Shown: positions 86-10,226 of the stretch, piece by piece | Position numbering within the stretch: the first letter of the stretch is position 1 | Layout: every line of letters begins with the position of its first letter | IMG/VR virus record: IMGVR_UViG_3300027917_000034 | Span: 1 to 64,000 of that record | Direction: 5' to 3' (one strand) | Source: a virus | Length of the DNA stretch: 64,000 nt | Translations under genes and position numbers: made by a program | The notes under the pieces: model-generated | Seen by the model: only the letters and a program-made list of their open reading frames with translations | Told to the model about the DNA's origin: nothing | Databases searched by the model: none

Positions 86-120
86 GACCGCCTCCTTTCG
101 TGGTCAGAAAACTCTACCAG

Positions 121-203
121 TGCGAGCGAGAGGAGTCGAACCTCCACGCCCTCTCGGGCACCTGGGTTTGAGCCAGGCGTGTCTGCCGTTTCACCACGCT
201 CGC
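121..203 (-). tRNA. tRNA-Leu(CAA)
   Basis: Cloverleaf with long variable arm; anticodon arm CCTGG-CT CAA AC-CCAGG. Confidence 0.93.
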
Positions 204-204
204 G

Positions 205-284
205 TACCCGCTGCGGGACTCGAACCCGCACGCACGAGGCGCCGGGGTTTAGGCCCGGTGTGTCTGCCGTTCCACCAAGCGGGC
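205..284 (-). tRNA. tRNA-Leu(TAA), with C33
   Basis: Cloverleaf with long variable arm; CCGGG-CC TAA AC-CCCGG. Confidence 0.88.
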
Positions 285-288
285 TCGG

Positions 289-373
289 TGCTACGGAGAG
301 GAGTCGAACCTCCACGGGGACTATGCCCCACCAGCCCCTCAAGCTGGCGTGTCTACCATTTCACCACCGTAGC
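289..373 (-). tRNA. tRNA-Leu(GAG)
   Basis: CCAGC-TT GAG GG-GCTGG; long variable arm. Confidence 0.93.
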
Positions 374-377
374 GTAG

Positions 378-460
378 TGCCAGGGAGAGGAGTCGAACCT
401 CCACGACCTTTCGGCCACTCGGTTCTGAGCCGAGCGCGTCTACCATTTCACCACCCTGGC
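378..460 (-). tRNA. tRNA-Leu(CAG)
   Basis: CTCGG-CT CAG AA-CCGAG; long variable arm. Confidence 0.93.
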
Positions 461-464
461 ATAG

Positions 465-535
465 TGGGCACAGAGGGACTCGAACCCCCGACTCTTGGGT
501 GTAGGCCAAGAATGATCCCATTTCACCATGCGCCC
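465..535 (-). tRNA. tRNA-Val(TAC), with C33
   Basis: CTTGG-CC TAC AC-CCAAG; T arm GGTTCGAGTCC. Confidence 0.85.
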
Positions 536-545
536 ATGAAAACTC

Positions 546-622
546 TGGTCGGGCAGAAGGGATTTGAACCCCCGACCTCCGCGTCCCGAACGCGGCGTGC
601 TCCCAGACTGCACCACTGCCCG
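546..622 (-). tRNA. tRNA-Pro(CGG)
   Basis: CCGCG-TT CGG GA-CGCGG; C1:G72; encoded CCA. Confidence 0.93.
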
Positions 623-683
623 ATGTTGATCGGCTGGTAGGGCGTGGCCCTCTCTACCGCCGCACTTTGGACCGGCCGATCGG

Positions 684-754
684 TGGCAACGGAGGGAATC
701 GAACCCTCTTGATCGCGGATATGAGCCGCGTCCCCTAGCCCGTAGGTCGCTGCC
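684..754 (-). tRNA. tRNA with CAT anticodon (Met or Ile2), atypical D arm
   Basis: CGCGG-CT CAT AT-CCGCG; good acceptor and T arms; D arm is non-canonical. Confidence 0.72.
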
Positions 755-755
755 G

Positions 756-831
756 AGGCGGGGGCTGGATTTGAACCAGCGATCTCTTGGTTATGAGCCA
801 AGTGGGGACGACCAGGCTCCCCTACCCCGCA
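756..831 (-). tRNA. tRNA-Met(CAT), initiator-like
   Basis: TGCGGGG...CCCCGCC with a 1:72 mismatch; CTTGG-CT CAT AA-CCAAG; overall fMet-like body. Confidence 0.85.
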
Positions 832-905
832 GGCGCGCTCGCCGGGACTCGAACCCGGATTCCTGGCTTCGGAGGCCAGTGCCCTATCCTTTGGACGACG
901 AGCGC
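832..905 (-). tRNA. tRNA-Arg(CCG)
   Basis: CTGGC-CT CCG AA-GCCAG. Confidence 0.92.
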
Positions 906-1111
906 TTGATCTGATCGGCCAACGCATCCGCCTCTCTCGCGGCCTTGCGGTAGTGCTCTACGCCACGGCGTAGACACTCCTCGCAGTTGACCTCTGCCAA
1001 GCGTTTCAGCCCGGCCAACTCGACTCCTTTCCGTGTGTAGATCTCGTGACCCTCCACCCCGCAGAAAGCTCCACGGTAAGGGCTCACGAGATGAACCACT
1101 GACGGTTCCAT
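884..1111 (-). CDS. small putative Zn-binding protein inside the tRNA array
   Basis: RBS GGGAGGG before ATG 1111; VH..CG...VNCEECL motif, similar to ORF 13025-13273; the stop codon lies inside tRNA-Arg(CCG). Confidence 0.55.
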   Translation of the reverse strand: MEPSVVHLVSPYRGAFCGVEGHEIYTRKGVELAGLKRLAEVNCEECLRRGVEHYRKAAREADALADQIKRSSSKG

Positions 1112-1125
1112 GACGCCCTCCCTTC

Positions 1126-1199
1126 GGAGACCCCGGCCGGACTCGAACCGGCATTCCAAGGTTCGTAGCCTTGTGCCCTATCCTTTGGACGACGGGGCC
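1126..1199 (-). tRNA. tRNA-Arg(ACG)
   Basis: CAAGG-CT ACG AA-CCTTG. Confidence 0.92.
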
Positions 1200-1201
1200 A
1201 G

Positions 1202-1273
1202 CGCTCCCACGAGGACTCGAACCCCGATCCACGGGTTAGAAGCCCGGTGCCCTATCCGTTGGACGATGGGAGC
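1202..1273 (-). tRNA. tRNA-Arg(TCT)
   Basis: CGGG-CT TCT AA-CCCG. Confidence 0.9.
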
Positions 1274-1274
1274 G

Positions 1275-1348
1275 TGGAGGCGCAGGGCGGAGTCGAACCG
1301 CCGACTGGAGGGTTGCAACCTCCCGTCTTTCCGTTTGACCACTGCGCC
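1275..1348 (-). tRNA. tRNA-Cys(GCA)
   Basis: GGAGG-TT GCA AC-CCTCC; U73; encoded CCA. Confidence 0.93.
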
Positions 1349-1351
1349 AGA

Positions 1352-1484
1352 GGCCGACAAGGGATTGCGAGAGACGTTTACGTGCTCTGCCACTGAGCTA
1401 CCGCCTCCATAGAGGGGAGGCGGACGGGGATCGAACCCGCGACCACGCGCTTACAAGGCGATGTACTCCCACGAGCATTCGGCC
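1352..1484 (-). ncRNA. Y RNA 1 (YrlA-like; T arm, closed acceptor, D arm order)
   Basis: GGCCGAATGC...CTTGTCGGCC terminal stem with GNCGAANG motif; internal T arm GGTTCGATCCC, acceptor hairpin CCGCCTCC/GGAGGCGG, D arm TAGCTCAGTGGCAGAGC; close to the TROVE gene. Confidence 0.88.
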
Positions 1485-1558
1485 GGAGCCGGCTACGGGA
1501 CTCGAACCCGTTTCTCGGGCTTGGGAAGCCCGCGCCTCACCTGTTTGGCCTAGCCGGC
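1485..1558 (-). tRNA. tRNA-Gly(CCC)
   Basis: CGGGC-TT CCC AA-GCCCG; U73; abuts Y RNA 1. Confidence 0.9.
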
Positions 1559-1605
1559 AGTTGGGCGCCCCCGGGGGACAGGGGCGCCCGTTCGATCAAG
1601 TGGGG

Positions 1606-3234
1606 TTAGTTGGTAGCCAGGTCGATGCCGTCGATGATCTCCAGCCACGACCCGGTGTCACCAGCGAGGAAGGAGCTTGCGACCTTGAACACCGCGTCAC
1701 TCCAGCCGGACACTTGCAGGATCTCCGGGTGGTTCCCGTCGATCTGATGCGTGCGCCCGGGGGTGATGTCGATGCACACCAGCTTCGCGTCCCGGTTGCG
1801 GTTCCGCAGCGTCTCCCACTCGTGCATGAGAGCCGTTCCGCTCCCGTAGCCCCAATAGCCCCTGTCGGCCCATGACTCGTAGTCCGAGATGACCACGACG
1901 TGATCGACCTTCAGGCGCCGCTGGTTCACGTGGTTGAACGCAGCGCTCAGAGCCGTTCCACCTCCACCGAATCGGGCGAGCCGATCGGCTTCGGTCAGAA
2001 GCGGGTTCCGAGGCTCCGGACGGTAGCCGGTGTGGACCGACGTATCGACCGGGAGAACGGCTGCGTCACGGTTCTGACGCAGGTACGACGCAGAGAACAG
2101 CGCCGCGACGTCCACGCACCGGACCTTGGTGGCCACCTGCTCCATGCGACCCGTCTTCCGGTTCCGCTTGAAGCCTGTGACCGGGCTCCGCATCGACCCG
2201 GAGACGTCCACGACGATCAGCGTCCGGCCCTCTGCGACCGGGGCGTTCTCGGTGGCAATCTCCATGGCGTCGTGGAGAGCGTCCACGATCTTGCGAGGCA
2301 CGTCCGGGTGGATGTGCTTGTAGGCCGCGAGCAACTGGTACGGCATGACCCGGGCCTTCTGGATCGACTCCCGGTCCCGCAAGCGGTCCGCGATGAAGTC
2401 CTCCATGCCGGGGTCGGCCTTCAGAACCCCGTGCCGCAGAGCGGTGTTGAGGTTCATCCGGATGAAGTGCCACTGCCCGTTGCGGAAGATCTGCGCCCAC
2501 TGCTCGCCCGTGAGGGGCTCTGCCGTGAGCAACTGGAAGTCCACCGGAGGCGATGGCAGGCTCTTGTCTGCCTTCCACTCCTCGTACTGCCGGACGAGCG
2601 GCGGGAGATTCTTCCAGCCCTTCTTCCGCCGATCCTTCTCGCCCTTTCCGATCATGTACCCGAACAGCGCCTCGTGCTCCGGAGAAGCCGGGCTCGGGTG
2701 GACCATCTTCACGATGTCCGCGCCGGATGGGTCTTGACCGACCGACAGTTGACGGAACAGCCAGTTGGGCTTGTTCCTGGAGAAGAAGCCCCGGACGAGG
2801 TTCCGTGGCCCGGTGCCCAGCGACTTCCGACCGAGCTTTCCACTCCGCATCATCTGGACGAAGTTGCGGAGCATCTTCCCGTTGTCGATGACCTGCGGGA
2901 ATGCGGCCTTCAGGGCTGCGCGTCCGTTGTCACCACGAGAGGCCAGGACCGCCATGAGCAAGGCCGGCATGTCCTTCATGTAGCCTTCCTTGCGCGTGAA
3001 GATCGCCAGCTTCGCGATGAAGTCGGAGTCGCACTCCTTCGCCAGAGCGAGCACGCGGTCCAGGTGGTCCTCGGCGTTCACGTAGAACGTGTCCGAGAGG
3101 CACCCTGTCATCGCGTACCGAGCCAGGGCTTGCTTGGAGCCGAGAGCGTATGCCTTGCCCCCGGCTGCGTTCACTGCGTCTGCTGCCTTGACCGTCCGCC
3201 CACGGGACGATCCGAAAAGAGACTTGTTCGCCAT
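1606..3234 (-). CDS. rsr: TROVE-domain Ro60/Rsr RNA-binding protein with C-terminal vWA domain
   Basis: N-terminal 'N.AGG.AY......L..Y..TG.L..TFY' and 'GYMKDMPALL' segments typical of bacterial Ro60; vWA MIDAS 'VDVSGSM', 'GGGT', 'ISDYESW'; RBS GGAAGGGAGG before ATG 3234. Confidence 0.93.
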   Translation of the reverse strand: MANKSLFGSSRGRTVKAADAVNAAGGKAYALGSKQALARYAMTGCLSDTFYVNAEDHLDRVLALAKECDSDFIAKLAIFTRKEGYMKDMPALLMAVLASRGDNGRAALKAAFPQVIDNGKMLRNFVQMMRSGKLGRKSLGTGPRNLVRGFFSRNKPNWLFRQLSVGQDPSGADIVKMVHPSPASPEHEALFGYMIGKGEKDRRKKGWKNLPPLVRQYEEWKADKSLPSPPVDFQLLTAEPLTGEQWAQIFRNGQWHFIRMNLNTALRHGVLKADPGMEDFIADRLRDRESIQKARVMPYQLLAAYKHIHPDVPRKIVDALHDAMEIATENAPVAEGRTLIVVDVSGSMRSPVTGFKRNRKTGRMEQVATKVRCVDVAALFSASYLRQNRDAAVLPVDTSVHTGYRPEPRNPLLTEADRLARFGGGGTALSAAFNHVNQRRLKVDHVVVISDYESWADRGYWGYGSGTALMHEWETLRNRNRDAKLVCIDITPGRTHQIDGNHPEILQVSGWSDAVFKVASSFLAGDTGSWLEIIDGIDLATN

Positions 3235-3347
3235 GATCGACCTCCCTTCCGCCAACAGTGCGGCGCTTTCATGGCTGCCTTCCCCACCTACAGGCGTGGG
3301 GTGGCAATCTCCTATCGCTACCAGGTAGCGATTGGATAGTCAAGAGT

Positions 3348-3500
3348 GCCCTGACAAGTGAGCGCGAGAGCGTTTTTTTCAGCTTCCGGCCCATGATTCA
3401 GGCTCCGAGGAGCCGGCGGGCCGGGACAGGATTTGAACCTGCAACCTTTGATTTAGGAGATCAATGCTGTACCGATGTACTCCCACTAGGCATTCAGGGC
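3348..3500 (-). ncRNA. Y RNA 2 (tRNA domain opened in the D-loop; intact Arg-CCT-like anticodon arm)
   Basis: GCCCTGAATGC...CTTGTCAGGGC; internal GGTA-CAGC, TTGAT-CTCCTAA-ATCAA, T arm, acceptor CCGGCCC/GGGCCGG, then GCTG. Confidence 0.85.
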
Positions 3501-3573
3501 GGTGCTGGTAGGGGGAGTCGAACCCCCATCTTCAGGGTGGAAACCTGACGTCCTGCCGTTGAACGACACCAGC
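3501..3573 (-). tRNA. tRNA-Gly(TCC)
   Basis: TCAGG-TT TCC AC-CCTGA. Confidence 0.88.
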
Positions 3574-3576
3574 AAA

Positions 3577-3699
3577 GGCCGACAAGAGATGGTCGAGATA
3601 AGCGCCCCCGAAGGGCACCCGCCACAGAGCGGCCCCCGAAGGGGCCTTGGCGGCGGGCAAAGGATTTGAACCAATGTAATCCCGTCCGAGCATTCGGCC
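3577..3699 (-). ncRNA. Y RNA 3 (T loop, acceptor-like stem and UUCG hairpins)
   Basis: GGCCGAATGC..GGGATTACAT..ATCTC..CTTGTCGGCC; GGTTCAAATCC; two TTCG-capped hairpins. Confidence 0.82.
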
Positions 3700-3774
3700 G
3701 GAGCCCCGAGCGGGAATCGAACCCGCCATCTCCGCCATACCAAGGCGGCGAATCACCGTTGATTCATCCGGGGC
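3700..3774 (-). tRNA. tRNA-Thr(GGT)
   Basis: CCGCC-TT GGT AT-GGCGG. Confidence 0.85.
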
Positions 3775-3777
3775 AGA

Positions 3778-3905
3778 GGATCGACAAGGTGGGCGCGAGG
3801 CTATGCCTTTACCAAGGTTAGGCTACCTGGCCATGGAAAGCTCCGAGGAGCGGTGGCCAGGGGTGGATTTGAACCATCAAAGTAGTCCCGCAAGGCATTC
3901 GATCC
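3778..3905 (-). ncRNA. Y RNA 4 (YrlA-like)
   Basis: GGATCGAATGC...CTTGTCGATCC (compensatory stem); T arm TGGTTCAAATCCA, acceptor CCTGGCCA/TGGCCAGG, D arm TAGCCT..AGGC. Confidence 0.86.
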
Positions 3906-3907
3906 AG

Positions 3908-3978
3908 TGGAGCCGGGGGGAATCGAACCCCCATCCCCTGGGTGCAAACCAGGTGCTCTCCCGTTGAGCTACGGTCCC
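3908..3978 (-). tRNA. tRNA-Ala(TGC)
   Basis: CCTGG-TT TGC AC-CCAGG; G3:U70. Confidence 0.92.
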
Positions 3979-3981
3979 ATT

Positions 3982-4124
3982 GCGGCGACAAGGGTTGCAG
4001 AGATCGTACCTCCGGGGGTGTTCGCCCCGGCGCTCTGATTGAGCTATAGGCGCAGGACTGCACGGTGTTACCCGCCGCCCCTGCTGGAGCACCTAACGAT
4101 GTATTCCCCGCCTGCATTCGCCGC
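3982..4124 (-). ncRNA. Y RNA 5 (tRNA domain opened in the T-loop)
   Basis: GCGGCGAATGC...CTTGTCGCCGC; ATCGT-TAGGTGC-TCCA...GCGCCTA-TAGCTCAATCAGAGC-G-CCGGGG/CCCCGG-AGGT-ACGAT. Confidence 0.85.
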
Positions 4125-4127
4125 GTA

Positions 4128-4204
4128 GGAGACTGACCAGGGGTCGAACCTGGAAGCGCACGAGCCGATCGGTCTCCCGCACGCCGTCCGTCTCTTCAAT
4201 CTCC
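4128..4204 (-). ncRNA. tRNA-like RNA lacking a D stem, with an extended anticodon-position helix
   Basis: GGAGATTGA/TCAGTCTCC acceptor-like stem, T arm CCAGG-TTCGACC-CCTGG, helix GCGTGCGGG/CTCGTGCGC; no 7-nt anticodon loop. Confidence 0.6.
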
Positions 4205-4206
4205 GG

Positions 4207-4280
4207 TGGATCGTGCCGGGGTCGAACCGGCGACCTCCGCGATGCGAACGCGGCGCTCTCCCACACTGAGCTAACGACCC
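4207..4280 (-). tRNA. tRNA-Ala(CGC)
   Basis: CCGCG-TT CGC AT-CGCGG; G3:U70. Confidence 0.92.
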
Positions 4281-4284
4281 ATGA

Positions 4285-4352
4285 GGCCGACAAGGAACGG
4301 TGAGACGACGGTTTTTCTCCAACGAAAATGTAGTCCCTCCAAGCATTCGGCC
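4285..4352 (-). ncRNA. Y RNA 6 (minimal, Ro-binding module only)
   Basis: GGCCGAATGC TTGGA GGGACTACAT...GTCTC...CTTGTCGGCC; 68 nt, no tRNA arms. Confidence 0.8.
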
Positions 4353-4354
4353 GG

Positions 4355-4427
4355 TGGAGTCGGAGGGGCTTGAACCCTCGGCCTTCGGTCTGCCAGACCG
4401 ACGCTCTCCCAACTGAGCTACGACCCC
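4355..4427 (-). tRNA. tRNA-Ala(GGC)
   Basis: TCGGT-CT GGC AG-ACCGA; G3:U70. Confidence 0.92.
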
Positions 4428-4495
4428 ATCCACAACCCGTCAGGGGGGCTGCGGCGTATGAGAATGCGACCGGGACAGAACCCTTGTCGTCGCGG

Positions 4496-4567
4496 TGGGC
4501 GTGGAGGGATTTGAACCCCCGATCTTCTGCGCGTCGAGCAGACGTCTTTCCACTTGACCACACGCCC
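4496..4567 (-). tRNA. tRNA-Val(GAC), with C33
   Basis: TCTGC-TC GAC GC-GCAGA. Confidence 0.85.
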
Positions 4568-4569
4568 TC

Positions 4570-4644
4570 TGGTACCCCGCCCCGGACTCGAACCGGGATT
4601 CGCCGGCTTATAAGGCCGGTGCAGTACCCTTGTGCTAGCGGGGC
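4570..4644 (-). tRNA. tRNA-Ile(TAT)
   Basis: CCGGC-CT TAT AA-GCCGG; encoded CCA. Confidence 0.87.
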
Positions 4645-4692
4645 TCCGAGTTTTCGGAGCCCGGTATTCGCCTCATCATTGGAACCCCCTTC

Positions 4693-4767
4693 TGGTGCCC
4701 AGGGACGGAATCGAACCGTCGTTCTCGCACTTATCAGGCGCGCGTCTTGCCACTCGACCACCCGGGC
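4693..4767 (-). tRNA. tRNA-Ile(GAT)
   Basis: CGCGC-CT GAT AA-GTGCG; encoded CCA. Confidence 0.92.
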
Positions 4768-4768
4768 A

Positions 4769-4844
4769 TGGAGCCCCCGGCCGGACTCGAACCGGCATCC
4801 TCTCGGGTAGGAGCCGAGCGCACGTCCTGTCGTGCTACGGGGGC
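4769..4844 (-). tRNA. tRNA-Arg(CCT)
   Basis: CTCGG-CT CCT AC-CCGAG; encoded CCA. Confidence 0.9.
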
Positions 4845-4845
4845 A

Positions 4846-4923
4846 TGGGGTGATCGATGGGACTCGAACCCACTAGGGCCGGGATCACAACCCGGTGCCG
4901 CGACCACTTTGGCTTCGACCACC
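4846..4923 (-). tRNA. tRNA-His(GTG)
   Basis: CCGGG-TT GTG AT-CCCGG; G-1:C73; encoded CCA. Confidence 0.92.
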
Positions 4924-4927
4924 ATGA

Positions 4928-5056
4928 GAGCCGACAAGGAACCGATGAGATCGTGAGTCATTCTATGGGCAGGACTCGAACCTGCTTCTCCGGGATTGCC
5001 CGGCGCTTTTCCTCATAAGCTACCTCAGAGATGTAATCCCGCCGTGCATTCGGCTC
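4928..5056 (-). ncRNA. Y RNA 7 (unpermuted cloverleaf attached through the acceptor stem; 4-nt loop in place of the anticodon)
   Basis: GAGCCGAATGC...CTTGTCGGCTC; D arm TAGCTT..AAGC, CCGGG-CAAT-CCCGG, T arm GCAGGTTCGAGTCCTGC. Confidence 0.85.
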
Positions 5057-5130
5057 GGTACCAGCGCCGGGACTTGAACCCGATCCTCTCGGTCCACAGC
5101 CGAGCGCGCCACCCGTTGCGCCTCGCTGGC
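5057..5130 (-). tRNA. tRNA with GTG anticodon lacking His identity elements
   Basis: CTCGG-CT GTG GA-CCGAG; A73 and no G-1. Confidence 0.75.
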
Positions 5131-5131
5131 A

Positions 5132-5217
5132 TGGTCCCCCGAGAAGGAATCGAACCTCCCTGGCCATACGACGACGGGGTTACAGCCCGCCCACCATCCA
5201 TAGGTGTCTATCGGGGG
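5132..5217 (-). tRNA. tRNA-Tyr(GTA) with C1:G72
   Basis: GCGGG-CT GTA AC-CCCGT; long variable region; acceptor CCCCCGA/TCGGGGG-A-CCA. Confidence 0.85.
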
Positions 5218-5226
5218 AAAACTCAG

Positions 5227-5300
5227 TCCGCGTGGAGGGATTTGAACCCCCGTCTTCCGGCTCCCAAAGCCGGCGCCCGACCAGGCTGGGCCACACGCGG
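5227..5300 (-). tRNA. tRNA-Pro(TGG)
   Basis: CCGGC-TT TGG GA-GCCGG. Confidence 0.92.
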
Positions 5301-5301
5301 A

Positions 5302-5376
5302 TGGTGGAGAGCCCCGGAATCGAACCGAGATTCGCGGATTTTCAGTCCGCTGCTCTACCGATTGAGCTAACTCTCC
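5302..5376 (-). tRNA. tRNA-Phe(GAA)
   Basis: GCGGA-CT GAA AA-TCCGC; encoded CCA. Confidence 0.94.
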
Positions 5377-5377
5377 A

Positions 5378-5455
5378 TGGCGGGGATGACGGGATTTGAA
5401 CCCGCGATCTTCTGCGTGACAGGCAGATGTCCTACCCAGGCTAGACCACATCCCC
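5378..5455 (-). tRNA. tRNA-Asp(GTC)
   Basis: TCTGC-CT GTC AC-GCAGA; G73; encoded CCA. Confidence 0.94.
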
Positions 5456-5459
5456 AAAA

Positions 5460-5568
5460 GGCCGACAAGATCGATGAGAGCTTTTACATGCCGGACTCGA
5501 ACCGGCTAGGTTTGGTTGATAGCCAAATTGTGAACCAATCACGATGTACTCCCACCCGGCATTCGGCC
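5460..5568 (-). ncRNA. Y RNA 8 (unpermuted cloverleaf attached through the acceptor stem; ATC anticodon loop)
   Basis: GGCCGAATGC...CTTGTCGGCC; TACAT/ATGTA stem, GTGA-TTGGT-TCAC, TTTGG-CTATCAA-CCAAA, GCCGGTTCGAGTCCGGC. Confidence 0.85.
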
Positions 5569-5643
5569 TGGCAGGTCACTGAGGAATCGAACCCCACAGA
5601 CGTCCGGGTTTGGAGCCCAGACCGCGTACCCAGCGCGTGACCC
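5569..5643 (-). tRNA. tRNA-Trp(CCA), short D arm
   Basis: CTGGG-CT CCA AA-CCCGG; G73; encoded CCA. Confidence 0.82.
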
Positions 5644-5723
5644 AGAGCGTCTCCGTCCAGGGCGTATCCATGGAACGAGTCGCTTCATGCGTCTCTCGGA
5701 GACGTGGCAGCATCCCGAAGGTC

Positions 5724-5780
5724 GCTGCCCCCACTGGTACCGTTGCTCCCTTTCGGGCCTGGCGGTCCTTGGTGGGCCAG
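5724..5780 (-). ncRNA. SRP RNA (4.5S/helix 8)-like element
   Basis: CCGCCAGGCCC-GAAA-GGGAGCAACGG has the CAGG/GNRA/AGCA signature of SRP domain IV; closed by CCCAC/GTGGG. Confidence 0.72.
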
Positions 5781-5853
5781 CATCGGAGGCAGGGATCGAA
5801 CCTGCACTGACGCGGGGTCAAAGCCCGCCGCTCTACCGTTGAGCTACTCCGAT
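5781..5853 (-). tRNA. tRNA-Gln(TTG)
   Basis: GCGGG-CT TTG AC-CCCGC. Confidence 0.88.
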
Positions 5854-5864
5854 ATGAAAACTGC

Positions 5865-5937
5865 GGCTCGGGCGCGAGGACTCGAACCTCGATTAGCGGG
5901 GCCAGAACCCGCCGTCCTGCCATTAGACGACGCCCGA
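5865..5937 (-). tRNA. tRNA-Gln(CTG)
   Basis: GCGGG-TT CTG GC-CCCGC; U1:A72. Confidence 0.92.
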
Positions 5938-5938
5938 A

Positions 5939-6014
5939 TGGTGGGTCCACCGGGACTCGAACCCAGATCGTCCGATTAAGAGTCGGAGGCGTTGCCAATT
6001 ACGCTCATGGACCC
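5939..6014 (-). tRNA. tRNA-Lys(CTT)
   Basis: TCCGA-CT CTT AA-TCGGA; encoded CCA. Confidence 0.92.
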
Positions 6015-6019
6015 GTGAA

Positions 6020-6094
6020 GGCTGGCCAGGTGGGACTCGAACCCACAACATCCCGGTTAACAGCCGGGCGCTCTACCAGGTGAGCTTCTGGCCA
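6020..6094 (-). tRNA. tRNA-Asn(GTT)
   Basis: CCCGG-CT GTT AA-CCGGG. Confidence 0.92.
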
Positions 6095-6199
6095 ATATGC
6101 CCCGGGGCCGGGTGAGCCCCGGGGCGAAGATGCTCGGTTGTCACAGACCGTTCGGCCGTCGCCGGCAGGTTCACAATCGGAACCTGCTTCTTCGATCGG

Positions 6200-6272
6200 T
6201 GGGGGCAACAGGGCTCGAACCTGCTCAGACCGGATTAAAAGTCCGGTGCCCGTCCTGTCGGGCGCTACCCCC
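6200..6272 (-). tRNA. tRNA-Lys(TTT)
   Basis: CCGGA-CT TTT AA-TCCGG. Confidence 0.88.
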
Positions 6273-6375: not shown

Positions 6376-6732
6376 CTCGCGTACAGTGCGTGTGCTTTGC
6401 GAGAGCCTACCCGGGGCTACCCTCCTGAAGCGCGATGGCGGCATAAAACACGGTATTGCCGCTATCGGAGGGTAGACACGTCCATGAGGACGGTCGTTTG
6501 ACCTCCGTGCGCTTCAACCGGGTATGGGATTCTTGCCGTTGCATCGTGCTTCTCAGTAGCTCCCGGAAGGTGATGGACCTCCCGCTCGCACTTCTCAGCC
6601 TGTCAAGCGCAAACCATCCCGTCAAGGGAAAAATGCACGCCGAGGCAACTTTTTTGCGGCTCTTTGGAACGTACTGACTGGTACTCCGTTGAGGGGCGGA
6701 GTGATCTCCCTGACGCCCACGGCGACGGCCCC

Positions 6733-6747: not shown

Positions 6748-6844
6748 AGAGATGGCTGTGAACGATTGCTCTTGACACCCGTGACAATCTCCTGCTATGT
6801 GGTATGAGTGAGTCGGGGAAGGTCTCCCCGAAGGAGAGCGATCG

Positions 6845-7053
6845 TGGCCCGTTTCAAGCACTCCTTACGCTCCGAGATGAGCGACGACCGCTACTCCGTA
6901 CTGGTGTTGGAGGATGAGCGCTCGACGCACATCCGATGTAGCGTCGATGGCGAGTGGGTCGTGCGCGTGACGGCGCCCCGAAGGCACGATGCGTTCTGCG
7001 CGGCCGAGAAGGCGCTGCTGCTTCTGCGGGAGCTTGTCGAGGAGAGGCCATGA
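6845..7053 (+). CDS. hypothetical protein
   Basis: AGGAG RBS before GTG; stop overlaps the next start (ATGA). Confidence 0.55.
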
Positions 7054-8908: not shown

Positions 8909-10226
8909 AGAAGAGATCGCCCGTCTGGCCGAGGAGCGTGATCGGGCCATGGAGCGTTGGCGCATGGCAGTCGAGGGCGAAGCCGAAGAAGAGGCACCTC
9001 GCGAGTGCATGCACGGGTTCATGCACGGGTGGTGCCCCGACCCCCGGTGCAGCTACGCCATGAAGGCCGACGAGTACGACGCCGAGATGAAGCGCGACCC
9101 GCTCCACGGAGAGATGTGGGACCGCGACAAGCTCCTGTACCCGAAGGTCCGGATGATCCGAGCCCAGAGGGGTGACGAGTGGGGCTGGGAGGTCAAGTGC
9201 CTCGTGCGCCCGCGCGAGGGCGAGAACGGGGAGGTGGTGTGGGCCGAGGAGCAGCACAGCGCCGAGCACGCACCCTTCGGTCCGACCCGACGTATCCACT
9301 GCGCCTGCGGGATCTCCTACGACGTGACCACCGACATACCGCCAGAGCACGTGCCGGGGCTCTGCCCGCAGTGTGGCGGCGAGCGCTTCCGCTCCACACC
9401 GCTCGTGGAGGTCTACGAGGAGCCCATACCGAACGACGACGATGACGGCGTGGACGACCTCGACTTGCCGGGTTCCCCAGACCATGACGCGGACATCGCG
9501 GACAGCTACCACCGCGCCCGAGACGACGAGCTAGCCCGGCGCGCAGAGCACGCGACCAAGGCCGAGGAGAGGGCTCTCCAAGACTTCACGAGCGCCATGG
9601 AAGAGGTGCGCTGCAAACTCGTAGCGGCCGTGGGCGGCCCGGCGAACATGAAGTGGATGGACCTGGTTCCGGCCGTGGAGAAGCTGGCCACAGACCTGGC
9701 CAACACCAAGGCCAACAGCGCGAACGTCTTCCTGGCCGTCAACATCGTCCGAGAGCACCTGTGGAAGATCCGAGACGTGGCCGCCAAGGCGCTCGGAGAG
9801 GACGTGCCGGACTGGACGACCGGAGACGAGCACACGGCTACTGCCTACGTGGAGCGGATCATCGCTCGCCTGGAGGAGAACGCCGAGGAGCGGAGCCGCA
9901 TGGTCGGCACGATCAACCGCCTGGAAGAGGACGTCAAGGTGCTCCACGAGGGCGACGAGACCGAGGCCGGGACGTGGAAACTCCACTACGTCAGCCTGTG
10001 CCAAGAGATCGGCATTCCGCGTTCGGTCTACGGCGACGTGAAGGCCCCGAAGGTGGACGAGATCGCCCGCTACATGGGGCAGACGTACACGCCCCTGACG
10101 AAGCTGGCCGAGCGCGTGGCCGACATCGAGAACCGGCTTCCGAAGCAACAGGTCTGCGGCCAGTGCGGGGCTCGCTACCCGACCGGGGTGCAATTCTGCC
10201 CGTCCTGCGGAAAGGAGCCATCATGA
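8895..10226 (+). CDS. hypothetical protein with several Zn-ribbon motifs
   Basis: 443 aa; CxxC pairs including C-terminal CGQCG...FCPSCG. Confidence 0.75.
   Translation: MKPSREEIARLAEERDRAMERWRMAVEGEAEEEAPRECMHGFMHGWCPDPRCSYAMKADEYDAEMKRDPLHGEMWDRDKLLYPKVRMIRAQRGDEWGWEVKCLVRPREGENGEVVWAEEQHSAEHAPFGPTRRIHCACGISYDVTTDIPPEHVPGLCPQCGGERFRSTPLVEVYEEPIPNDDDDGVDDLDLPGSPDHDADIADSYHRARDDELARRAEHATKAEERALQDFTSAMEEVRCKLVAAVGGPANMKWMDLVPAVEKLATDLANTKANSANVFLAVNIVREHLWKIRDVAAKALGEDVPDWTTGDEHTATAYVERIIARLEENAEERSRMVGTINRLEEDVKVLHEGDETEAGTWKLHYVSLCQEIGIPRSVYGDVKAPKVDEIARYMGQTYTPLTKLAERVADIENRLPKQQVCGQCGARYPTGVQFCPSCGKEPS

What the first reader, a model, noticed from the sequence alone, without database searches (positions are those of the whole stretch)
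3348..3500. Y RNA 2: opened in the D-loop and keeping a complete Arg(CCU) anticodon arm
Seen: GGTA-CAGC-A, TTGAT-CTCCTAA-ATCAA, AGGTT, T arm GCAGG-TTCAAAT-CCTGT, acceptor CCGGCCC...GGGCCGG, AA, GCTG. The D stem GCTG/CAGC is split around the Ro module. Its anticodon loop (CU CCU AA) is canonical, whereas the real tRNA-Arg(CCT) at 4769 has CU CCU AC. Inference: the Y RNA displays a nuclease-sensitive, host-like loop as bait while the working tRNA is altered. The acceptor-capping hairpin GCTCCTCGGAGC is shared with Y4, which suggests module shuffling.
Basis: partly seen in the sequence, partly recalled or inferred. Interest (0 to 1): 0.78.

Follow-up and report, generated by a model that had tools for sequence, protein, structure and literature searches.

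The report
Phage Y RNA with D-loop-opened tRNA body
A phage small RNA that should bind the Ro60 protein carries an almost complete tRNA-Arg(CCU) look-alike joined to its Ro-binding stem through the D-loop, a layout also present, undetected by the Rfam YrlA model, next to Ro60 genes in many bacteria.

Summary
When the two halves are rejoined at the D-loop, ARAGORN calls tRNA-Arg(cct).

The RNA sits 90-110 nt upstream of a Ro60/TROVE gene, inside a 35-tRNA array. It is one of eight Y-RNA-like modules that share one Ro-binding stem.

The D-loop-opened layout is not a one-off. A covariance model built only from 14 bacterial and metagenomic examples, without Y2, hits Y2 at 65.5 bits (E 5e-19). About 37 members lie in 166 Ro60 loci from at least six phyla. 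31 of 33 pairs show compensatory changes. Rfam's YrlA model misses them.

Y2 is the only member with a true 5-bp/7-nt anticodon arm (CUCCUAA); most others have 5-7 bp stems closed by short (2-5 nt) loops, a few have longer non-anticodon loops. Contigs from two other metagenomes carry a compensatory A-U to G-C change in this stem and an unchanged loop.

The phage's real tRNA-Arg(CCU) has CUCCUAC, as claimed. The "nuclease bait" reading is untested and unsupported.

Verdict: a real Y RNA and a new structural variant of the YrlA kind. Whether the loop has a function is open.

The parts
3348..3500 (-). Y2, the whole Y RNA (153 nt). It begins directly after tRNA-Gly(UCC), which ends at 3501.
   Evidence: Model R1 hits 3349-3499 at 65.5 bits. 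A block at 3342-3505 is conserved in contigs of other metagenomes, while the neighbouring spacer is replaced.
3494..3500 (-). Helix 1, 5' strand GCCCUGA. The Ro motif YGAAUGC follows (GAAUGC at 3495-3490).
   Evidence: It pairs with 3348-3354. In the class these pairs covary: column 4/195 is CG 18, UA 18, GC 4.
3348..3358 (-). CUUGUC motif and helix 1, 3' strand UCAGGGC
3474..3484 (-). Helix 2, 5' strand GGGAG, followed by the conserved GUACAUC (the YUAY motif of YrlA)
   Evidence: The motif is described in PMC4201824.
3366..3379 (-). A7-CG linker (the D-loop 5' part, A14 A15 onward) and helix 2, 3' strand CUCUC
   Evidence: The A-rich linker is conserved across the class. One A is missing in the natural variants.
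3466..3473 (-). GGUA (G18 G19 U20 A21) and the D-stem 3' strand CAGC
3380..3385 (-). AA (positions 8-9) and the D-stem 5' strand GCUG
   Evidence: Pair 13:22 is G:C here and C:G in all 14 other members parsed strand by strand.
3448..3464 (-). Anticodon arm UUGAU-CUCCUAA-AUCAA (5 bp, 7-nt loop: C32 U33 CCU A37 A38)
   Evidence: The natural variants carry 3461 A>G together with 3451 U>C on the RNA strand, which turns an A-U pair into G-C. The loop is unchanged.
3443..3447 (-). Variable loop AGGUU. U48 can pair with A15 (Levitt pair).
   Evidence: G15:C48 in 12 of the 15 parsed members, A15:U48 in Y2 and L210
3426..3442 (-). T arm GCAGG-UUCAAAU-CCUGU
3386..3425 (-). Closed acceptor: an extra C, then CCGGCCC, then GCC, then the cap hairpin GGCUCCUCGGAGCC, then UGAAUCAU, then GGGCCGG (a 7-bp stem)
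   Evidence: The variants differ only in the unpaired linker, at 3399 and by an insertion at 3397.
1606..3255 (-). Ro60/TROVE + vWA gene. The likely start is the ATG at 3234, giving 542 aa.
   Evidence: P0001 is 542 aa
4769..4844 (-). The phage's working tRNA-Arg(CCU), loop CUCCUAC
3840..3851 (-).

Best explanation
Y2 is a genuine phage Y RNA. It belongs to a structural subclass of YrlA-like RNAs that is missed by Rfam and that I did not find described in the papers I could read.

How it is built (shown):
- Its 5' and 3' ends form the Ro60-binding stem. This consists of helix 1, the YGAAUGC/CUUGUC bulge and helix 2.
- The stem is inserted into the D-loop of an otherwise complete tRNA body.
- The D stem forms between the two ends of the cargo.
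- The anticodon arm, variable loop and T arm are in normal order.
- The acceptor stem is closed by a capped hairpin.

How it most likely works (inferred):
- It is cut out of the long tRNA/Y RNA transcript by the tRNA-processing enzymes.
- It is bound by the phage Ro60 encoded just downstream.
- As in other Y RNAs, it acts as an adaptor or gate. It would tether Ro60, probably together with host PNPase, to a factor that recognises tRNA shape.
- In canonical YrlA, Ro60 sits at the anticodon end. In this layout Ro60 sits near the elbow and the anticodon arm is left free.

In Y2 alone that arm is a true anticodon stem-loop of the Arg(CCU) type. This may add specificity for a factor that reads this loop. 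That last step is unproven.
For: Context:
- The Ro60/TROVE gene lies on the same strand about 90-110 nt downstream.
- Eight modules share one Ro stem.

Topology:
- The Rfam tRNA model gives a partial hit.
- ARAGORN calls tRNA-Arg(cct) after re-permutation.

Independent class model:
- R1 was built from 14 non-phage sequences without Y2. It hits Y2 over its full length at 65.5 bits, E 5e-19. The other window Y RNAs score 42 bits or less.
- The class has about 37 members at 62 bits or more, in 166 Ro loci.
- 97.6% of cells are paired against 71.5% in shuffles. 31 of 33 pairs carry compensatory changes. Slid controls reach 47% or less.
- RNAalifold found the same fold on its own.

Tertiary-pair logic is kept:
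- G18 G19 is invariant in the 14 model seeds and in Y2.
- The 15:48 pair covaries: A:U in Y2 and L210, G:C in most others.

Selection on the hairpin:
- Contigs from two other metagenomes carry a compensatory A-U to G-C change at pair 30:40. The loop is unchanged. The spacer next to Y2 is replaced.

Precedent:
- Y RNAs tether Ro60 to PNPase in D. radiodurans and S. Typhimurium, and in vitro for Thermus phage phiLo (PMC4201824, PMC12135203).
- YrlA is a structural tRNA mimic (10.1101/312249).
Against: - No expression, Ro-binding or end-mapping data exist. No RNA run holding this DNA was listed.
- The mimicry is imperfect. Position 8 is A, not U. There is an extra C between the T stem and the acceptor stem. 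Position 20 is U; by my recollection, not checked here, A20 is the main ArgRS identity element in E. coli. The phage's own tRNA-Arg(CCU) has A after G18 G19 (sequence printed).
- The Ro motif is CUGAAUG, not the published GNCGAA. The U variant is, however, present in 18 of 40 class members.
- Thermodynamics alone does not single out the D stem: the MFE uses a slightly different pairing.
- The A4 alignment was fitted to the model, which favours the structure.
- The partner of any tRNA-like Y RNA module is unknown, so the tether step is by analogy.
Confidence: 0.72

Rival explanations
1. Decoy. Y2 displays a host-type tRNA-Arg(CCU) anticodon loop, CUCCUAA, to soak up or mislead a host anticodon nuclease. 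The phage's working tRNA-Arg(CCU) escapes through C38.
For: - Y2 has A38 and the phage tRNA has C38.
- A38 is the form in Mx1, in another phage and in Massilia horti. It is also the form in the tRNA-like matches of 76 of 81 genomes of one sampled phylum.
- The window's tRNAs carry C38 in 12 of 34 cases, against 58 of 662 in the other loci (Fisher p 4e-5).
- Phage tRNAs that evade anticodon nucleases through loop changes are documented (PMC10264068).
- Y2 is the only one of about 37 class members with a true anticodon loop.
- The loop is unchanged in the natural variants.
Against: - The host and any nuclease are unknown.
- No colicin D-like domain lies in the record. This says nothing about the host.
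- At about 5% divergence, an unchanged 7-nt loop is expected about 70% of the time by chance.
- C38 enrichment may reflect host or GC style rather than escape.
- The anticodon stem UUGAU/AUCAA is shared with the Y RNA of L244, whose loop is GAAA. The arm therefore descends from a Y RNA lineage, not from a freshly copied host tRNA.
- A stoichiometric decoy would have to be very abundant.
Confidence: 0.1
2. Y2 is processed like M. smegmatis YrlA. RNase P cuts 5' of GGGCCGG (between 3393 and 3392). The cap is trimmed back to ..CCGGCCC-GCC and an A is added. The result is a two-piece, Ro-bound tRNA-like RNA with a free NCCA end and a real CCU anticodon.
For: - M. smegmatis YrlA is cut by RNase P in vivo and in vitro and receives CCA. 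This was attributed to its 7-bp acceptor stem (PMC4201824).
- Y2 also has a 7-bp acceptor stem.
- G-C-C follows the 3' strand directly.
- A 25-nt cap could serve as a joined trailer and leader.
Against: - An extra C lies between the T stem and the acceptor stem, which may disturb coaxial stacking.
- A 'CC' after the stem has a 1 in 16 chance of occurring at random.
- Other class members cap the acceptor with a bare tetraloop.
- There are no end-mapping data.
- No CCA-adding enzyme gene lies in the 82-kb record, although the host would supply one.
Confidence: 0.2
3. The loop is a neutral accident. Y2 is a normal member of the D-loop-opened class, and its 7-nt CUCCUAA loop has no role of its own. 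Any stable closure of the arm would do.
For: - Loop size and sequence vary freely across the class (2 to 13 nt as aligned; many tetraloops).
- L244 has the same stem with a GAAA loop.
- The chance that a random 7-nt loop reads Y32-U33-NNN-R37 is about 1 in 16.
Against: - Y2 is the only one of about 37 members with the exact tRNA geometry of 5 bp plus 7 nt and U33/A37.
- A second Y RNA of the same phage, Yh at 5456-5568, also has a canonical 7-nt loop, CUAUCAA.
Confidence: 0.35
4. Y2 is a decayed or permuted tRNA gene, or a chance pattern, and has nothing to do with Ro60.
For: - The order '3' half first, 5' half second' is that of permuted tRNA genes (Cyanidioschyzon merolae; from my own knowledge).
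- The Rfam tRNA model gives a partial hit.
Against: - The ends of Y2 carry the same Ro-binding module as seven other RNAs in the window.
- The same module is present in the class members in bacteria, which lie beside Ro60 genes on the same strand in the loci checked.
Confidence: 0.02

Closest known systems
YrlA (Rfam RF02553; Chen et al. 2014, PMC4201824; crystal structure in Wang et al. 2018, 10.1101/312249)
   Same: - It is encoded beside Ro60 on the same strand.
- It has a 5'/3' stem with the (Y/C)GAAUG motif and the YUAY motif.
- It has a T arm with a tRNA-type T loop.
- It has a closed acceptor-like stem.
- It shows Levitt-pair covariation.
- It occurs in phages as well as bacteria.
   Different: - In YrlA the Ro stem continues from the anticodon stem, there is no anticodon loop, and there is a complete D hairpin.
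- In Y2 the Ro stem sits inside the D-loop, there is no D hairpin, and the anticodon arm is complete.
- The Rfam YrlA model gives no hit on Y2 even at E<=10. It scores other members of the layout at 28-35 bits or not at all, against a gathering score of 69.
M. smegmatis YrlA (cut by RNase P, CCA added)
   Same: A 7-bp acceptor stem in a closed loop, with a C-rich sequence after the 3' strand.
   Different: Processing of Y2 is untested. M. smegmatis YrlA has the canonical topology.
D. radiodurans Yrn1
   Same: It can be drawn with an anticodon-like arm of 5 bp.
   Different: - In Yrn1 the Ro stem takes the place of the acceptor stem.
- Its loop has 6 nt.
- D-arm features are weak.
- In the window, Yh (5456-5568) resembles this layout, not Y2.
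Permuted tRNA genes (Cyanidioschyzon merolae; from my own knowledge) and two-piece/permuted tmRNA
   Same: The gene order is circularly permuted relative to the folded tRNA-like body.
   Different: Those mature by circularisation or cleavage into working tRNA or tmRNA. Y2 keeps a Ro-binding stem at the permutation point and a closed acceptor.
Phage tRNAs with altered anticodon loops that escape anticodon nucleases (PMC10264068)
   Same: The phage's own tRNA-Arg(CCU) differs from the common form at position 38. The phage carries a near-complete tRNA set.
   Different: That work concerns working tRNAs. No decoy RNA carried on a Y RNA scaffold appears in the paper titles and abstracts I searched.

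Membership tests
Y RNA / YrlA (RF02553) | Encoded within about 4 kb of a Ro60/TROVE gene on the same strand | tested here: met
   The Ro60 ORF is at 1606-3255(-), with Pfam TROVE and vWA_Ro60 domains. Y2 is at 3348-3500(-).
Y RNA / YrlA (RF02553) | A stem formed by the 5' and 3' ends, with the GNCGAAN0-1G motif near the 5' end | tested here: inconclusive
   The stem is present and covaries. The motif reads CUGAAUG, with U in place of C. The U-A variant of that pair is found in 18 of 40 class members. Ro binding itself was not tested.
Y RNA / YrlA (RF02553) | T arm and closed acceptor-like stem-loop | tested here: met
Y RNA / YrlA (RF02553) | A complete D stem-loop 3' of the acceptor stem, with the anticodon-like stem leading into the Ro stem and no anticodon loop | tested here: not met
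   There is no D hairpin. The D stem forms across the Ro module, and a full anticodon hairpin is present.
Y RNA / YrlA (RF02553) | Reaches the Rfam gathering score of 69 bits | tested here: not met
   No YrlA match on 3330-3510 even at E<=10
Y RNA / YrlA (RF02553) | Bound and stabilised by Ro60 in vivo | not testable with these tools
   This needs immunoprecipitation.
D-loop-opened Y RNA class (defined here by model R1) | Full-length match to a model trained without the candidate | tested here: met
   65.5 bits, E 5e-19, model positions 1-122. Other Y RNA types score 58 bits or less.
D-loop-opened Y RNA class (defined here by model R1) | The order GG-N-A / D-stem 3' strand / anticodon hairpin / 4-5 nt V loop / T arm / closed acceptor / 2 nt / D-stem 5' strand / A-rich linker | tested here: met
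   Grammar scan and parse
D-loop-opened Y RNA class (defined here by model R1) | Anticodon arm closed by a short stable loop (the typical form of the class) | tested here: not met
   Y2 has 5 bp plus a 7-nt loop, CUCCUAA. It is an atypical member.
tRNA (RF00005) | A contiguous cloverleaf with an open acceptor end | tested here: not met
   ARAGORN makes no call in the native order. The Rfam hit covers only the D-loop 3' part through the T arm, with the acceptor deleted.
tRNA (RF00005) | Anticodon arm of 5 bp with a 7-nt loop carrying U33 and a purine at 37 | tested here: met
Permuted tRNA gene | Matures into a working, aminoacylated tRNA | not testable with these tools
   The 3'-half-first order is present, but the Ro module at the junction argues for a Y RNA.

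The most novel reading that the evidence does not exclude
Y2 is opened by RNase P and receives its terminal A, as M. smegmatis YrlA does. The result is a Ro60-bound, two-piece tRNA-Arg(CCU) replica with a free CCA end and a readable anticodon loop. The phage uses it to engage a factor that reads this loop. That factor could be a host Arg-specific anticodon nuclease, with Y2 as a decoy. It could also be a tRNA to be handed to a Ro60/PNPase degradation complex, or an anticodon-loop modification enzyme. Meanwhile the phage's own tRNA-Arg(CCU) carries C38.
Probability: 0.1. Interest if true: 0.85.

Novelty: new variant of a known kind. Interest (0 to 1): 0.66.

Why it matters
Y RNAs with tRNA-like modules are known, but what the tRNA-like part binds is an open question.

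A second, widespread topology places Ro60 at the elbow instead of the anticodon end. It usually sits next to a canonical YrlA in the same locus. This gives a natural pair of adaptors that expose different faces of the tRNA shape. That narrows the search for partners.

The class is missed by the current Rfam model, so many Ro60 loci are under-annotated.

The phage member is the only one with a true anticodon loop. It offers a concrete test of whether anticodon display on a Y RNA scaffold matters in the contest between phages and tRNA-targeting host defences.

Cultured carriers of the bacterial class exist, for example Massilia horti ONC3, Paracidovorax valerianellae DSM 16619 and Acidovorax strains. 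Experiments are therefore feasible.

Tried and rejected
- blastn of Y2 against 50,697 phage records: no match.
- Two exact-pattern scans of IMG/VR for Y2-like junctions gave only chance hits in coding DNA.
- Ro-based scans of IMG/VR, metagenome contigs and genome contigs returned only relatives at 50% Ro identity or less.
- Closer Ro relatives exist in the protein collection (P0002 86%, P0003 81%, P0004 77%, others down to 60%). Orthologue-level conservation of the loop therefore could not be tested.
- No RNA holder was listed among the sequencing runs.
- The two Wolin-lab reviews (PMC10870794, PMC6047535) and the supplements of Chen et al. 2014 are not held. I cannot rule out that this topology is drawn somewhere in them.
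- No RtcB, RNA ligase, CCA-adding enzyme, colicin D domain or PNPase/RNase PH domain lies in the 82-kb record, which is about 48% complete.
- No class member was found near Ro in Mycobacterium phage Phabba, Streptomyces phage Yaboi, Gordonia phage Rabbitrun or Myxococcus phage Mx1.
- No sigma-70-like promoter or intrinsic terminator lies around Y2.
- The host could not be identified. The closest named phage by Ro60 (43.5% identity) is Myxococcus phage Mx1.
- The phylum sampled is that of one Ro-bearing MAG, not necessarily the host's.

Full report
**What the window is.** The window is the first 64 kb of an 81.9-kb IMG/VR virus record that is about 48% complete. Its GC content is about 63%. By Ro60 protein similarity, the closest named phage is Myxococcus phage Mx1, at 43.5% identity. 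The minus strand from 120 to 6272 carries 35 tRNA genes. An ORF at 1606-3255(-) matches Pfam TROVE and the Ro60 vWA domain.

**Check of the observation.** I read 3500->3348 on the minus strand.
- The tRNA-like cargo runs GGUA, CAGC, A, UUGAU-CUCCUAA-AUCAA, AGGUU, GCAGG-UUCAAAU-CCUGU, CCGGCCC ... GGGCCGG, AA, GCUG.
- It is flanked by GCCCUGA-AUGC..GGGAG-UACAUC on the 5' side.
- It is flanked by A7-CG-CUCUC..CUUGUCAGGGC on the 3' side.
- The Rfam tRNA model aligns the stretch from GGUA through the T arm at 32 bits, above its gathering score of 29. It deletes the acceptor.
- ARAGORN sees no tRNA in the native order.
- I rejoined the two halves at the D-loop by slicing in a script: acceptor 5' strand, AA, GCUG and 2-5 A, then GGUA onward. 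I added poly-A flanks and ACCA. ARAGORN then calls tRNA-Arg(cct) in all four versions.
- The fold is more stable than shuffles, with z = -3.35.
- The tRNA-like structure with the D stem formed across the Ro module lies within 0.6 kcal/mol of the MFE.
- The working tRNA-Arg(CCU) at 4769-4844 has the loop CUCCUAC.
- The 12-mer GCTCCTCGGAGC occurs exactly twice in the window. Both copies cap an acceptor-like stem.

**Context in the window.** The motifs GAAUGC and CUUGUC pair up eight times on the minus strand between 1349 and 5568. This defines eight Y-RNA-like modules with a common frame: GGCCGAAUGC..GGGA(N)UACAU ... CUCUC..CUUGUCGGCC. Their cargoes differ.

| Module | Coordinates | Cargo |
|---|---|---|
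| Ya | 1349-1484 | Canonical YrlA. Rfam scores it 57 bits, below the gathering score. |
| Yd | 3775-3906 | Canonical YrlA, 37.7 bits. |
| Yh | 5456-5568 | The Ro helix continues into the acceptor stem. It has a full 7-nt loop, CUAUCAA. |
| Yg | 4923-5056 | Holds ARAGORN's "tRNA-???" with a 4-nt anticodon loop. |
| Ye | 3979-4130 | A closed acceptor, a D arm and an anticodon-like arm, but no T arm. |
| Yf | 4281-4352 | Minimal. |

Y2 starts directly after tRNA-Gly(UCC), which ends at 3501. It ends about 90-110 nt before the Ro60 start. No sigma-70-like promoter or terminator interrupts the array. Co-transcription and release by tRNA-processing enzymes are therefore likely, though inferred.

**The layout is a class, not a one-off.**
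- Ro-based searches gave 5 viral, 80 metagenomic and 80 genomic loci with Ro60 41-50% identical to the query.
- A regular-expression search found 152 Y modules in the viral and metagenomic loci and the window.
- I ran ARAGORN on the circularised cargoes. Most break in the anticodon region, which is the canonical YrlA form. Y2 and three metagenomic RNAs break at positions 11-17, which is the D-loop.
- A strict grammar scan then found many more, each beside the Ro module.
- I aligned 14 of them, leaving Y2 out. RNAalifold predicted the same six helices, and 27 of 33 pairs carried compensatory changes.
- The covariance model R1 built from this alignment hits Y2 over its full length at 65.5 bits (E 5e-19). 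This is the best hit in the window. The other seven Y RNAs score 42 bits or less.
- Across 166 Ro loci, about 37 RNAs score 62 bits or more, and other Y RNA types score 58 or less.
- By record title they come from Oxalobacteraceae and Comamonadaceae (Massilia, Undibacterium, Noviherbaspirillum, Acidovorax, Paracidovorax), Verrucomicrobiota, Planctomycetota, Armatimonadota, Bacteroidota and Acidobacteriota.
- On the 40-row alignment, 97.6% of cells pair, against 71.5% in shuffles. 31 of 33 pairs have changes on both sides. Slid controls reach at most 47%. That alignment is fitted to the model, which favours the structure, but the margin is large.
- The two lowest rows, L251 and L214:5774, are not class members.
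- In the loci scanned with Rfam, these RNAs lie next to canonical YrlA copies that pass Rfam's threshold. They themselves score 28-35 bits or nothing with the YrlA model.
- No member was found near Ro in three actinophages or in Mx1.

**tRNA logic in the class and in Y2.**
- GG (G18 G19), A21, the T loop and the D stem GCUC/GAGC are nearly invariant.
- Y2 differs at D-stem pair 13:22 by a double change, from C:G to G:C.
- The Levitt pair covaries. It is G15:C48 in 12 of the 15 parsed members and A15:U48 in Y2 and L210.
- Y2 departs from a perfect tRNA in three ways. It has A8 instead of U8. It has an extra C between the T stem and the acceptor stem. It has U, not A, at position 20.

**What is special about Y2.**
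- In the class, the arm in the anticodon position is usually a 5-7 bp stem closed by a short loop, most often a tetraloop such as GAAA, GCAA, UUCG or CUUG. A few have other lengths.
- Y2 is the only member with the exact tRNA form. It has 5 bp, a C32/A38 mismatch that prevents extension, and a 7-nt loop with U33, CCU and A37.
- The stem UUGAU/AUCAA is shared with the class member in L244. That RNA lies on a 152-kb contig with a large tRNA array upstream of Ro, and its loop is GAAA. The arm therefore seems to descend within a Y RNA lineage and not from a freshly copied tRNA.

**Natural variation.** Contigs of four other sequencing runs were laid on 3230-3720.
- One run carries the same sequence.
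- Contigs from a sediment run and a mangrove run cover 3342-3483 and 3342-3505 at about 95% identity.
- On the RNA strand they carry 3461 A>G together with 3451 U>C. These are the two sides of anticodon-stem pair 30:40, so an A-U pair becomes G-C.
- No change is listed between them, so the loop is unchanged.
- The other listed changes are one A fewer in the A run, and a substitution plus a 1-nt insertion in the unpaired cap linker.
- In the mangrove contig, the spacer between Y2 and the Ro start (3278-3341) is replaced by 74 unrelated letters. Y2 and the Ro N-terminus are kept.
- This shows that Y2 is a discrete conserved unit and that the anticodon hairpin is under selection to pair.
- At this low divergence, the unchanged loop is only weak evidence for selection on the loop.

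**The bait idea.**
- The facts behind it hold. Y2 has A38 and the phage tRNA has C38.
- Other tRNA-Arg(CCU) genes I could read have A38. These are Mx1, another phage, Massilia horti, and the tRNA-like matches in 76 of 81 genomes of one sampled phylum.
- The phage's tRNAs carry C38 unusually often: 12 of 34 against 58 of 662, p 4e-5.
- Phage tRNAs that escape anticodon nucleases through loop changes are documented (PMC10264068).
- Against it: the host is unknown, no nuclease is in view, and the rest of the class does not display anticodon loops.
- The C38 excess may also reflect lineage or composition.
- I rate the decoy reading at about 0.1.

**A second lead.** M. smegmatis YrlA is cut by RNase P inside its closed acceptor loop in vivo and gains CCA. 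This was ascribed to its 7-bp acceptor stem (PMC4201824). Y2 also has a 7-bp stem. G-C-C follows its 3' strand, and a 25-nt cap could act as a joined trailer and leader. Processing to a two-piece RNA with a free CCA end is therefore plausible, at about 0.2, but untested.

**Most likely mechanism.**
- Shown: the sequence anatomy, membership of a covarying class beside Ro60 genes, and selection on the anticodon stem.
- Inferred by analogy with studied Y RNAs (PMC4201824, 10.1101/312249, PMC12135203): Ro60 binds the terminal stem, and the tRNA-like module serves as the effector or gate module.
- The new point is geometric. Canonical YrlA puts Ro60 at the anticodon end and exposes the elbow and acceptor. 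The D-loop-opened form puts Ro60 at the elbow and exposes the anticodon arm.
- In the loci scanned with Rfam the two forms sit side by side, which suggests complementary partners.

**Limits.**
- There are no expression or binding data.
- Two reviews and the supplements of the 2014 paper are not held. "Not described" therefore means not found in the papers and the Rfam release I could search.

Noticed in passing
window 1349-5568, minus strand: Eight Y-RNA-like modules share one Ro-binding frame but carry at least four different tRNA-like topologies. Ya and Yd are canonical YrlA. Y2 is D-loop-opened. Yh and Yg are fused at the acceptor. Ye lacks a T arm. There is also a minimal 68-72 nt form, Yf. 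No other Ro locus examined had as many by the regex count.
   Followed up: partly
L007:6816-6938 (IMG/VR 3300042731_006792): This is a tRNA-like RNA with an open 7-bp acceptor stem and ACCA. Its anticodon loop is replaced by a closed Ro-binding module, with the 3'-strand motif first and then GGAUGC..GGAGUACAUC. It is the inverse permutation of YrlA. The Rfam tRNA model scores it 50.7 bits with a large insertion.
   Followed up: no
window 120-6272 (tRNA array): The phage tRNAs have C at position 38 in 12 of 34 cases. C32/C38 and U32/C38 combinations are both over-represented.
   Followed up: partly
window 5456-5568, minus strand (Yh): A second Y RNA has a canonical 5-bp/7-nt anticodon arm, UUUGG-CUAUCAA-CCAAA. 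ARAGORN reads it as Asp(auc) after circularisation. The phage's real tRNA-Asp(GUC) loop is CUGUCAC, again with C38.
   Followed up: no
L244 (MWYZ01000088.1, 152-kb contig of an 'Acidobacteria bacterium 28-1' MAG): More than 20 tRNA genes and several Y RNAs lie upstream of Ro60, as in this phage. The contig may be a large phage binned into a MAG. Its D-loop-opened Y RNA at 1279-1407 has the same anticodon stem as Y2.
   Followed up: no
window 3234-3255: The mechanical ORF starts at a TTG at 3255. An ATG at 3234 is preceded by GGGAGG, and a 542-aa database protein identical to the query (P0001) matches this start. It is the more likely start of Ro60.
   Followed up: partly
window 3278-3341: The spacer between Y2 and the Ro60 start holds two hairpins. 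In a related mangrove-metagenome contig it is replaced by 74 unrelated letters, while both flanks are kept.
   Followed up: no
L180:6274-7375 (903-kb metagenome contig): Six Y RNAs lie in tandem downstream of Ro60. They mostly alternate between canonical YrlA (81, 75, 61 and 63 bits in Rfam) and D-loop-opened forms (6496-6619 and 6838-6966).
   Followed up: partly
L003:9138-9266 (Myxococcus phage Mx1): Model R1 gives a weak hit of 28 bits. It overlaps an unannotated ARAGORN call, tRNA-Ile(aat) at 9144-9218, about 1.5 kb downstream of the Mx1 Ro gene. This may be a Y RNA with a tRNA-like insert.
   Followed up: no
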